DNA of 17,167 nt from a virus (Duplodnaviria; Heunggongvirae; Uroviricota; Caudoviricetes): the IMG/VR virus record IMGVR_UViG_2617270948_000004. One strand, given 5' to 3'. The position numbers and the translations under genes were made by a program. The notes under the pieces were generated by a model. The model made no database searches. It had not been told where the DNA came from and saw only the letters and a program-made list of their open reading frames with translations. Of this stretch, positions 349 to 885 are shown in pieces. The number at the start of each line of letters is the position of its first letter. Positions within the stretch are counted from its first letter, which is position 1.

Positions 349-569
349 TTTTCATCTCCATATATCTTGCATCCTGAATAAGACCCGATGCGTGTAAAAC
401 CACGGATATACGCTAAGCAGTTGTCATTACTGCTACTCAATACATTCAACAAACAAATAAACAATCACCAAAAATATAAATCTTTAATATTAATGAACAC
501 CATAAATTCACAAAATAAATATATTGTTTGCGTTACGTTTCTTGTCAACTGGAGTATCATTTTACACGA

Positions 570-589
570 TACTGTATACACATACAGTA
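570..589. promoter_or_regulatory. LexA (SOS) box candidate TACTGTATACACATACAGTA
   Basis: Read directly: CTGT-N8-ACAG with flanking TA, 18 of 20 matches to the E. coli LexA consensus TACTGTATATATATACAGTA, with perfectly symmetric arms. It sits in the AT-rich divergent intergenic region between the Mor-like gene and the holin/endolysin operon. A -35-like TTGTCA lies at 542..547. Which promoter it controls is undetermined. Confidence 0.55.
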
Positions 590-885
590 TTATTTTTACC
601 TGTAGTATAAAAAGATCGTTTCCCTCACAGTCGCTAACTTTCTTAAACAAACTTTAAAAATCAAATAACTACTGACTACTCCCACGATCCACCATCCTCT
701 TTTCCCTGCATAATGACGCGCTTATTCGCCAGGTCACCTTTTGCTCTTTTATTAATGGGTGGATTTATTAGCGAGCATGTTCATTTATAGAGGATCTATT
801 TTTTAAAGTTATTTATTAAAGCTTTTTTCATTCTTCACTGGAGGGATCTGGCGACACTAAACGCTCACTTATCAGGAGATATCGT

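What the first reader, a model, noticed from the sequence alone, without database searches (positions are those of the whole stretch)
349..885. Near-consensus LexA box in the divergent control region between the Mor-like activator and the lysis/tail operon
TACTGTATACACATACAGTA at 570..589 matches the E. coli LexA consensus at 18 of 20 positions, with perfect CTGT/ACAG arms. It sits in a 537-bp AT-rich intergenic region flanked by divergent genes. This suggests direct SOS control of the activator and/or the lysis-tail operon, without a dedicated phage repressor gene in the window. That wiring would suit a DNA-damage-induced tailocin.
Basis: partly seen in the sequence, partly recalled or inferred. 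Interest (0 to 1): 0.5.

Follow-up and report, generated by a model that had tools for sequence, protein, structure and literature searches.

The report
Conserved LexA operator in tail-island control region
A genuine, evolutionarily conserved binding site for the host DNA-damage repressor LexA sits in the control region of a headless phage-tail (tailocin-like) island that has no repressor of its own; this probably links the island's activator and lysis/tail genes to the SOS response, but which promoter it blocks is not settled.

Summary
The 20-mer TACTGTATACACATACAGTA is at 570-589, matches the LexA consensus at 18/20, and is far beyond chance. It scores 25.8 bits on an E. coli LexA matrix (above recA and sulA); the next-best site in the window scores 10.7. 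The window is a tail-only island of BcepMu/carotovoricin type next to lysC: Mor-family activator, holin, SLT, P2-type tail genes, no head, integrase or repressor. In 33 of 38 distinct mor-holin intergenic regions (E. coli, Salmonella-type, Dryocola, Phytobacter, Superficieibacter) a 19-28-bit box lies 219-291 bp from the mor ATG. There are 18 sequence variants; CTGT and ACAG never change. Distant Mor genes, mostly on long viral contigs, lack it.

Published Salmonella data add three things. Without DNA damage, mor and a rightward transcript start at other, box-independent sites. The box-overlapping promoter, the best sigma-70 match in the region, is silent. With nalidixic acid the mor orthologue rises 4-fold and the tail genes do not.

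So LexA binding and SOS input are well supported. The target promoter (rightward, leftward or both) and real tailocin induction are not. This copy's sheath gene carries a stop codon. This is a new variant of a known kind, of moderate interest.

The parts
1..348 (-). mor-like gene (115 aa), Mor/C-family late transcriptional activator
   Evidence: Pfam PF08765 E=7e-38; PHROG 532 'late transcriptional activator'; matches Mu Mor 1RR7 at E=5e-8 and Mu C; 49% identical to BcepMu gp01.
484..493 (.). Palindromic TTAATATTAA. Approximate counterpart of the overlapping -10 regions of the two divergent, box-independent start sites mapped in Salmonella. The mapping onto the window is uncertain (about 470-515).
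   Evidence: SL1344 dRNA-seq TSS 4459159(+) for STM4219 and 4459135(-) assigned to STM4218. The mapping onto Salmonella loci is exact; onto the window it is only approximate.
518..547 (-). Leftward promoter-like site specific to the Escherichia lineages: TTGACA (547-542), 19-bp spacer, TATATT (523-518). Candidate proximal mor promoter in this lineage.
   Evidence: Sigma-70 scoring gives 12.4 bits in the window and in E. coli, but it is not conserved in other genera.
558..567 (.). Near-invariant motif CATTTTACAC abutting the box. It reads as a -35 TTTACA (561-566) rightward, or as a -10 TAAAAT (564-559) leftward.
   Evidence: Column identity 0.95 across 13 lineages against 0.68 for the whole intergenic region.
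570..589 (.). LexA operator (SOS box) TACTGTATACACATACAGTA
   Evidence: Present in 33 of 38 distinct intergenic regions, in 18 variants, with CTGT and ACAG invariant. Arm identity is 1.00 and centre identity 0.82.
561..588 (+). Candidate SOS-only rightward promoter P(+): -35 TTTACA, 16-bp spacer, -10 TACAGT. The operator covers the spacer and the -10.
   Evidence: It scores 9.9 bits and is positionally conserved in 10 of 13 lineages. It is the single best sigma-70 match in the Typhimurium-type region, above the two mapped active promoters (9.4 and 7.7), yet has no TSS in uninduced cells.
559..587 (-). Candidate SOS-only leftward promoter P(-): -35 CTGTAT (587-582, inside the box), 17-bp spacer, -10 TAAAAT (564-559). 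An A-rich tract lies just upstream at 590-600.
   Evidence: 6.6 bits, not above the AT-rich background: 16 sites at or above that score. It would give a mor leader of about 205 nt.
612..635 (.). Conserved block C, AAAAAGATCGTTTCCCTCACAG, containing a GATC. Function unknown.
   Evidence: Alignment of 16 lineages; column identity 0.72.
637..664 (.). Conserved block D, TTTCTTAAACAAACTTTAAAAATCAA. It is a weak inverted copy of the late-promoter half-site TTTTTAAAG.
   Evidence: Second-best hit in the whole window to the late-element matrix, but only 7.4 against 37.7 bits; column identity 0.80.
797..822 (+). Invariant AT-rich late-promoter element TATTTTTTAAAGTTATTTATTAAAGC. Inferred binding site of the Mor-like activator.
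   Evidence: Unique in the window. It is the most conserved 20-nt stretch of the region (0.97) and ends a fixed 63-64 bp from the holin ATG in 13 lineages. Binding by Mor is inferred, not shown.
853..878 (+). Core of the inferred late promoter: -10-like GACACT (853-858; GATACT or CATACT in relatives) with no recognisable -35, then the ribosome-binding site AGGAG (874-878).
   Evidence: Alignment. The geometry is typical of activator-dependent Mor/C promoters (established knowledge of phage Mu, recalled). No TSS was mapped here in uninduced Salmonella.
886..2108 (+). Lysis cassette: holin (886-1173), SLT lytic transglycosylase (1176-1781), lipoprotein (1794-2108).
   Evidence: Pfam Holin_2-3 and SLT; PHROG 1528 holin and PHROG 462 lipoprotein.
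2226..15509 (+). Tail module: BcepMu Gp37-like protein, sheath (2865-4289, interrupted by TGA at 3348-3350), tube, chaperone, tape measure, U, X, D, V, W, J, I, tail fibre, fibre assembly protein and a 151-aa ORF. No head, packaging, replication or integration genes.
   Evidence: Pfam; sheath stop codon; annotated E. coli and Salmonella counterparts.

Best explanation
The 20-mer is a functional operator for the host LexA repressor. Together with the adjacent invariant motif CATTTTACAC it forms a promoter-operator module, and this module supplies the DNA-damage signal to a domesticated tail-only island of BcepMu/carotovoricin type that has lost any repressor of its own.

Most likely wiring (inferred): in undamaged cells LexA sits on the spacer and -10 of the strongest sigma-70-type promoter of the control region (-35 TTTACA 561-566, -10 TACAGT 583-588). 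This promoter points toward the lysis-tail operon, and LexA keeps it silent. mor is meanwhile transcribed at a low basal level from a separate, box-independent promoter. When LexA is cleaved, the module fires. Transcription enters the long leader upstream of the Mor-dependent late promoter (797-865), and mor expression rises modestly. That rise could come from a weaker leftward promoter sharing the palindromic operator or from coupling between the divergent promoters. Full expression of holin, SLT and tail genes then needs the Mor-like activator at the invariant AT-rich element 63-64 bp upstream of the holin ATG.

Shown: the site, its LexA-like quality, its conservation pattern, the island's gene content, the mapped start sites and the expression changes in Salmonella. 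Inferred: LexA occupancy, the direction of the repressed promoter, Mor binding at the late element, and tailocin production.
For: Site quality and non-randomness.

Purifying selection with the LexA signature: 33 of 38 distinct intergenic regions from E. coli, Salmonella-type loci, Dryocola, Phytobacter and Superficieibacter carry a 19-28-bit box. There are 18 variants, positions 3-6 and 15-18 never change, and the centre varies. Arms are 100% conserved against a 68% intergenic mean. Salmonella Infantis has a 19/20 site. All 100+ distant Mor genes (42-62% identical, mostly on long viral contigs) lack a box.

No repressor or integrase in the island in the window, in E. coli A10 or in Salmonella Infantis.

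Promoter: TTTACA-16-TACAGT was found by the scan and is positionally conserved in 10 of 13 lineages. It is the top sigma-70 score in the Typhimurium-type region (9.9, against 9.4 and 7.7 for the two experimentally active promoters), yet gives no TSS in uninduced SL1344. That is the expected result of LexA occlusion.

The mor orthologue STM14_5073 rises 4.08-fold (49 to 204 TPM) with nalidixic acid.

Late promoter: an invariant element at fixed spacing from the holin ATG.

Precedent: the SOS-inducible 'Mu-type' tailocin carotovoricin also lacks a linked repressor.
Against: No LexA binding or SOS-dependent start site has been measured at this site.

In S. Typhimurium 14028, where SOS was clearly on (recA 36-fold, sulA 27-fold), none of the holin or tail genes is in the list of genes up 2-fold or more. 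A derepressed rightward promoter therefore does not detectably reach the operon under those conditions.

The 4-fold mor rise is not specific: 1091 genes rose, including ribosomal protein genes.

The same study did not list this gene as box-associated.

The invariant motif can equally be read as a leftward -10, so conservation does not fix the direction.

Enterobacter-type islands keep intact tail genes without any box, so the box is not indispensable to the element.

The window's own sheath gene is interrupted.
Confidence: 0.45

Rival explanations
1. Classical two-tier cascade through the activator only. The operator's relevant target is a leftward, SOS-only distal promoter for mor (-35 inside the box, -10 TAAAAT at 564-559, leader of about 205 nt) that adds to the basal proximal promoter. 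LexA cleavage raises Mor, and Mor alone turns on the late promoter. The rightward sigma-70 match is incidental, because a palindromic LexA box always contains TACAGT.
For: This is the regulatory logic of PrtR/PrtN and RdgA/RdgB (from memory). In Salmonella, mor is the only island gene in the nalidixic-acid upregulated list. TAAAAT keeps its A2 and T6 in 12 of 13 lineages, with an A-rich tract upstream of the box. The box-to-mor distance is tightly conserved (median 221 bp, most 219-230) while the box-to-holin distance ranges 284-348. Enterobacter lineages that lost the box still keep TAAAATG.
Against: The leftward promoter scores only 6.6 bits, which is no better than the AT-rich background (16 sites at or above that score in 505 bp). 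The mapped mor TSS lies 106 bp downstream of the box, so mor already has another promoter. A 4-fold mor rise did not bring up the tail genes.
Confidence: 0.33
2. Roadblock. LexA bound at a near-consensus site at about +83 to +102 stops elongation from the constitutive rightward promoter that was mapped upstream of the box. SOS induction lets this transcript read on toward the lysis-tail operon.
For: In SL1344 a primary rightward TSS (4459135, minus strand) lies 83 nt upstream of the box and was assigned to STM4218 with a 432-nt leader. The very high operator quality (17-19 of 20) would suit a roadblock.
Against: LexA is not known as an elongation roadblock (my knowledge). Tail genes were not induced by nalidixic acid. 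This model does not explain why the motif CATTTTACAC next to the box is conserved.
Confidence: 0.08
3. Relic or bystander. The box binds LexA but no longer controls anything of consequence, because the island is decaying. Or the palindrome is the site of another protein.
For: The window copy has a nonsense codon in the sheath gene, and relatives have split tape-measure and D genes. Salmonella variants lost the operon. Enterobacter-type islands lack the box. There was no tail-gene induction in 14028.
Against: The arms are invariant across 18 variants and several genera while the flanks diverge to about 55-65% identity. That argues for continuing selection for exactly the bases LexA contacts. 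Many relatives have intact tail genes.
Confidence: 0.08

Closest known systems
Carotovoricin Er of Pectobacterium and the RecA-RdgA-RdgB circuit
   Same: A 'Mu-type' tail-only bacteriocin cluster with no repressor gene linked to it, induced by DNA damage. From memory (Liu et al. 1994; McEvoy et al. 1992, cited): the damage-inducible activator RdgB is Mor-like. A BcepMu-family Mor homologue is even annotated 'RdgB'.
   Different: There the signal passes through RdgA, a dedicated LexA/cI-like cleavable repressor (essential in Pectobacterium). Here no such gene is present, and a canonical host LexA box lies in the control region itself. Homology of the two clusters was not tested here.
R/F-pyocin control by PrtR and PrtN (Pseudomonas aeruginosa)
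   Same: A two-tier design: a RecA-sensitive repressor, then a locus-specific activator, then lysis and tail genes.
   Different: PrtR is encoded in the locus and PrtN is not a Mor-family protein. Here the host's own LexA would play the PrtR role.
Colicin operons
   Same: A suicidal bacteriocin-plus-lysis module repressed directly by host LexA through strong operators, with no element-encoded repressor (established knowledge).
   Different: Colicins have tandem overlapping boxes immediately downstream of the -10 of the structural-gene promoter and no intermediate activator. Here there is a single box about 220-300 bp from both genes, plus a Mor-family activator.
LexA-controlled antirepressors of P2-like and lambdoid prophages (186 tum, Fels-2, Gifsy dinI-like genes)
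   Same: Host LexA directly gates one small regulatory gene of a phage-derived element (Gifsy examples).
   Different: Those genes inactivate a phage repressor. Here there is no repressor to inactivate, and the regulator is a transcriptional activator.
Phage Mu Mor/C late-gene cascade and BcepMu
   Same: The activator family, a lysis cassette heading a late operon with an activator-type promoter, BcepMu Gp37 and P2-type tail genes.
   Different: In Mu and BcepMu, mor is the last gene of a repressor-controlled early operon and has no LexA box. The island has no early, transposition or head genes.

Membership tests
E. coli-type LexA operator (SOS box) | 20-bp palindrome TACTGT(AT)4ACAGTA with CTGT-N8-ACAG | tested here: met
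   18/20 match with perfect arms.
E. coli-type LexA operator (SOS box) | Matrix score within the range of experimentally proven sites | tested here: met
E. coli-type LexA operator (SOS box) | Conservation pattern that follows LexA contacts (arms fixed, centre free) | tested here: met
   18 variants; positions 3-6 and 15-18 invariant.
E. coli-type LexA operator (SOS box) | Overlaps a promoter that it can occlude | tested here: inconclusive
   It overlaps a conserved 9.9-bit rightward promoter-like site and a 6.6-bit leftward one. The two experimentally mapped start sites do not overlap it.
E. coli-type LexA operator (SOS box) | SOS-dependent induction of an adjacent gene | tested here: inconclusive
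   Published data only: the mor orthologue is up 4.08-fold with nalidixic acid and the lysis/tail genes are not in the list of genes up 2-fold or more; the experiment is confounded by growth state.
E. coli-type LexA operator (SOS box) | LexA binding in vitro or in vivo | not testable with these tools
   Needs EMSA, footprinting or ChIP.
Mor/C family of phage late activators | Sequence membership (Pfam PF08765; similarity to Mu Mor and C) | tested here: met
   129 bits against a cut-off of 24.9; 1RR7 at E=5e-8; PHROG 532.
Mor/C family of phage late activators | Activates a promoter with a -10 but no -35 through an upstream site | tested here: inconclusive
   A conserved element at fixed spacing, a -10-like GA(C/T)ACT and no -35. 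Binding and activation were not tested.
R-type tailocin (phage tail-like bacteriocin) | Contractile-tail gene set plus lysis cassette, without head, packaging, replication or integration genes | tested here: met
   for the window; complete island boundaries in E. coli A10 and Salmonella Infantis.
R-type tailocin (phage tail-like bacteriocin) | Intact structural genes | tested here: not met
   The sheath gene is interrupted by TGA at 3348-3350 in the window and in all 6 contigs of its lineage. It is intact in E. coli A10, in Enterobacter- and Superficieibacter-like loci (L027, L032) and in Salmonella Infantis.
R-type tailocin (phage tail-like bacteriocin) | Inducible release of bactericidal tail particles | not testable with these tools
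   No report was found for this island.
Mu-like / BcepMu-like prophage | Transposase, early operon with repressor, head genes | tested here: not met
   Absent from the window and from the annotated islands; present in BcepMu.

The most novel reading that the evidence does not exclude
One palindromic LexA operator serves as a two-way gate embedded in overlapping divergent SOS-only promoters. It sits between a constitutive divergent promoter pair and a Mor-dependent late promoter. Damage would then release a rightward leader transcript and extra mor transcription together, so that the suicidal lysis-tail operon fires only when both inputs coincide (an AND gate). In this reading, host LexA has replaced the phage-type repressor during domestication of a BcepMu-like prophage into a tailocin that is kept at the lysC locus across several enterobacterial genera.
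Probability: 0.15. Interest if true: 0.55.

Novelty: new variant of a known kind. Interest (0 to 1): 0.4.

Why it matters
Tailocin regulation is understood mainly through the Pseudomonas PrtR/PrtN pair, and reviews state that other clusters' control is unclear. This island is present in about 4% of complete E. coli genomes and in Salmonella, including the LT2 locus STM4198-4219. I found nothing published on its regulation.

A conserved host-LexA operator next to a Mor-family activator, with no element-encoded repressor, would be a simple route by which a domesticated phage tail is plugged into the SOS network. It would also add a likely overlooked member to the Salmonella and E. coli SOS regulons: STM4219 was induced 4-fold but not listed in the published regulon. 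Because lysis of the producer is the cost, the strength of the operator (17-19 of 20) predicts firing only under severe damage, and this is directly testable.

Tried and rejected
1. A small SOS-induced peptide (tisB-like) next to the box. ORFs exist on both strands (25 aa at 713; 31 aa starting at the ATG of TAAAATG), but neither their sequence nor their start codon is conserved between lineages, and the longer overlapping ORFs have no Pfam hit.

2. A known RNA family in 300-950: none, even at E=1.

3. A conserved hairpin on the mor side of the box. Some lineages have stems, but they are not consistent; what is shared is sequence.

4. A rightward SOS-induced small RNA pairing with the mor leader. 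Duplex energies are no better than shuffled controls in 5 of 6 lineages.

5. A second, Mor-dependent autoregulatory promoter (TATACT at 604-609) upstream of the box. It is confined to Escherichia.

6. Using other genomic contexts of the module 'TTTTACA + LexA box' to fix its direction. The main other context is a divergent umuD-like/SRAP pair that shares the box, so it is uninformative.

7. The ST131 'tailocin' paper describes a different element, a complete P2-like prophage.

8. Other Salmonella transcriptome supplements held nothing on these genes, and the Kroger et al. start-site paper is not in the library.

9. Intrinsic terminators between the box and the holin gene: none predicted.

Full report
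**Observation.** The window reads TACTGTATACACATACAGTA at 570-589. This is the only match in 17 kb to the LexA consensus with up to 3 mismatches. It has 2 mismatches, and no shuffle out of 200 produced one. It is also the only CTGT-N8-ACAG in the window. The analytic expectation for 2 or fewer mismatches is 3e-5 per window. That is above the recA and sulA operators and 15 bits above the next-best site in the window. The intergenic region is 349-885 and 28-37% G+C. It lies between a Mor-family gene (1-348, minus strand) and a holin gene (886-1173, plus strand).

**What the window is.** After the holin come:
- an SLT lytic transglycosylase and a lipoprotein;
- a BcepMu Gp37-like protein;
- sheath, tube, chaperone, tape measure, and gpU, X, D, V, W, J and I;
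- a tail fibre and a fibre-assembly protein.

The window ends in a GT4 glycosyltransferase. There are no head, packaging, replication, integration or repressor genes.

The same island, about 94% identical, is in 197 of 5426 complete E. coli genomes. There it lies between lysC and yjbD with no further phage genes. A Salmonella Infantis record cross-referenced to LT2 shows the homologous island as STM4198-STM4219. STM4219 is Mor, STM4218 the holin and STM4213 the sheath, and a gtrABC cassette is inserted among the baseplate genes.

The activator is a Mor/C-family protein: Pfam 129 bits, and Mu Mor structure 1RR7 at E=5e-8. It is 49% identical to BcepMu gp01, annotated 'late transcriptional activator', which in the phage is the last gene of a long early operon. 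So this is a tail-only derivative of a BcepMu-like phage, the gene content expected of an R-type tailocin.

The window's own lineage is Escherichia-like; its pgi is 95% and its lysC 86% identical to E. coli. It carries a TGA in the sheath gene at 3348-3350, as do all six contigs with the identical Mor. Some of these also have split tape-measure and D genes. This copy is decaying. Many relatives are intact.

**Is the box selected?** I collected about 190 Mor loci from species-representative genomes, metagenomes and viral contigs.
- Among loci with both mor and holin there are 38 distinct intergenic sequences. Of these, 33 carry a 19-28-bit box 219-291 bp from the mor ATG (median 221).
- There are 18 different 20-mers. 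Positions 3-6 (CTGT) and 15-18 (ACAG) never vary, while the centre does.
- Salmonella Infantis has a 19/20 site.
- Across 13 lineages (E. coli, Dryocola, Phytobacter and Superficieibacter by record title; Salmonella-type and several unnamed lineages) the intergenic region averages 68% column identity. The box arms are 100%, and the adjacent motif CATTTTACAC is 95%.
- Box plus motif is the second most conserved block, after an AT-rich element near the holin.
- More than 100 distant Mor genes (42-62% identical), mostly on 20-60-kb viral contigs and in Pasteurellaceae genomes, have no box.

The exceptions are informative:
- Enterobacter-type islands keep intact tail genes but have a TATAAT where the box should be, and a different left half of the late element.
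- Some Salmonella strains have deleted the whole tail operon together with the box, leaving an orphan mor.

The conservation pattern is what continued selection for LexA binding predicts.

**Other conserved elements.**
- TATTTTTTAAAGTTATTTATTAAAGC (797-822) is unique in the window. It is almost invariant and ends a fixed 63-64 bp from the holin ATG in all 13 lineages.
- It is followed by a -10-like GA(C/T)ACT at 853-858, no -35, and the ribosome-binding site. This is the anatomy of an activator-dependent Mor/C promoter, so I infer that it is the Mor site. This is not shown.
- Two further blocks (612-635 and 637-664) are conserved. The second is a weak inverted copy of the late-element half-site, at 7.4 against 37.7 bits. 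Their role is unknown.

**Which promoter does the box control?** Sequence gives two readings of the same invariant motif.
- Rightward: -35 TTTACA (561-566), 16-bp spacer, -10 TACAGT (583-588), with the operator over the spacer and the -10. The promoter scan found it. It scores 9.9 bits and is positionally conserved in 10 of 13 lineages.
- Leftward: -35 CTGTAT inside the box, 17-bp spacer, -10 TAAAAT (564-559), with an A-rich tract upstream. It scores 6.6 bits, which is not above the AT-rich background.

Published experiments help.
- Ramachandran et al. 2014 (PMC3963941, supplementary file 13; dRNA-seq of S. Typhimurium SL1344 in late stationary phase) list exactly two primary start sites in this intergenic region. 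One is 4459159(+) for STM4219, 120 nt before its ATG. The other is 4459135(-), assigned to STM4218 with a 432-nt leader.
- Two fetched loci contain both 51-nt SL1344 promoter sequences exactly and carry the box AACTGTATATGCATACAGTA. The box therefore ends 106 bp upstream of the mor start site and lies about 83-102 nt into the rightward transcript.
- So both flanking units have box-independent promoters in undamaged cells, and no start site was recorded at the box or at the late promoter.
- With the same sigma-70 model, the mapped promoters score 9.4 and 7.7. The box-overlapped rightward promoter scores 9.9 and is the single best site in the region, yet it is silent. That is what LexA occlusion predicts.

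Merida-Floriano et al. 2021 (PMC8072944, Dataset S1; S. Typhimurium 14028 with and without nalidixic acid) report STM14_5073 up 4.08-fold, from 49 to 204 TPM. This gene is 348 nt, on the plus strand, annotated 'putative cytoplasmic protein'; I take it to be Mor from its size and locus-tag order. No other STM14_505x-507x gene is in the stored list, which appears to cover all genes up 2-fold or more (fold changes have fallen to about 2.6 by part 16 of 35). The result is weak evidence, because 1091 genes rose, including ribosomal protein genes. The paper's LexA-box table does not include this gene, although a 17/20 box lies 226 bp upstream of its ATG.

**Weighing.** That the site binds LexA and brings an SOS input to the island is well supported; I put it at about 0.85. 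The direction is not resolved.
- I favour occlusion of the rightward promoter as the physical event. It is the best and most conserved promoter match, and it is silent while weaker neighbours are active. In this view mor induction is secondary, or arises from a weak leftward promoter sharing the operator.
- The classical reading (LexA represses mor, and Mor turns on the late operon) is nearly as likely. It is favoured by regulatory logic, by the tighter box-to-mor spacing, and by mor being the only induced island gene.
- A roadblock of the constitutive rightward transcript, and a relic site, are minor alternatives.
- None of the models is confirmed by tail-gene induction. In the one available SOS transcriptome the lysis/tail genes did not rise 2-fold or more. 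This could mean that only a small, lysing subpopulation fires, that silencing or termination acts in the AT-rich leader, or that the Typhimurium copy is inactive.

**Comparison with known systems.**
- The closest is carotovoricin of Pectobacterium. A 2026 Tn-seq study describes it as a 'Mu-type tailocin' with no linked repressor and under SOS control (PMC13566846). The reference it cites is the rdg activator work. From memory, RdgB is Mor-like and is controlled by RdgA, a RecA-sensitive repressor. A BcepMu-family Mor homologue is even annotated 'RdgB'.
- Pyocins use PrtR and PrtN (PMC10598620).
- Colicins are repressed directly by LexA.
- P2-like and Gifsy prophages use LexA-controlled antirepressors.

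The present element combines the activator tier of the first two with the direct use of host LexA of the last two. I found no paper describing it. It is therefore a new variant of a known kind, not a new principle.

**Verdict.** Interest is moderate (0.4). It gives a testable addition to the enterobacterial SOS regulon and a simple model for how a domesticated phage tail is wired to DNA damage. It is tempered by the unresolved target promoter, by the negative tail-gene expression data in Salmonella, and by the broken sheath gene in this copy.

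Noticed in passing
window 3348-3350 (sheath gene 2865-4289): In-frame TGA splits the tail sheath into 161-aa and 289-aa ORFs. The same split is in all six contigs carrying the identical Mor, and some of them also have split tape-measure and gpD genes. The sheath is intact (473-475 aa) in E. coli A10, Salmonella Infantis and the Enterobacter- and Superficieibacter-like loci L027 and L032.
   Followed up: partly
window 16016-17167: The window ends in a GT4-family glycosyltransferase (Pfam also hits 'GT4 in conflict systems'). E. coli A10 has a nucleotidyltransferase plus slipin pair at the same end of the island, so the cargo at the island's distal end is variable.
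   Followed up: no
L191 (Salmonella Infantis) 6451-9286: A gtrABC O-antigen glucosylation cassette (LT2 tags STM4204-4206) is inserted between baseplate genes V and W of the Salmonella island, and it has its own mapped start site in SL1344.
   Followed up: no
L025, L026, L031 (Salmonella): Deletion variants keep an intact orphan mor next to lysC. The tail operon, late promoter and LexA box are all gone. The deletion endpoint is about 30 bp upstream of the mapped mor start site, and a hexapeptide-repeat transferase gene is now the neighbour.
   Followed up: partly
L027, L028, L130, L132, L135, L044, L045: Enterobacter-type islands have intact lysis and tail genes and a 89-90% identical Mor, but no LexA box (a TATAAT sits at that place). 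The left half of their late-promoter element is also different, so these islands appear to be wired differently.
   Followed up: partly
L122 and L272 (Typhimurium-type); PMC8072944: The Typhimurium-type sequence has a 17/20 LexA box 226 bp upstream of the STM4219 ATG, and STM14_5073 is 4-fold induced by nalidixic acid. Yet the published Salmonella SOS regulon table omits it, so it is possibly a missed regulon member. In the Infantis annotation a small hypothetical ORF covers the box, which might explain the omission.
   Followed up: partly
L193, L194, L211, L231, L244, L248, L253, L262, L267 (viral contigs): A recurrent divergent gene pair shares a single strong LexA box preceded by TTTTACA. 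One gene is umuD-like (S24 peptidase, N-terminus MSFTILGP...) and the other SRAP/YedK-like (N-terminus MCGR...). Both identifications are from the N-terminal sequences only.
   Followed up: no
window 612-664: Two conserved blocks of unknown function lie between the box and the late promoter. One contains a GATC; in Salmonella and Phytobacter it forms a CGATC-N5/6-GATCG palindrome. Indels between these blocks and the box are about 10-11 bp, roughly one helical turn.
   Followed up: partly
L021 10403-13695 versus L001: In the window's lineage, lysC next to the island is only 86.5% identical to E. coli A10 while the adjacent pgi is 95.2%. This suggests recombination or a divergent allele at the island border.
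   Followed up: no
window 15054-15509: A 151-aa ORF after the tail-fibre assembly gene has no Pfam hit but matches PHROG 1128 ('enoyl-CoA hydratase/carnithine racemase-like', moron category) at E=7.5e-57.
   Followed up: no
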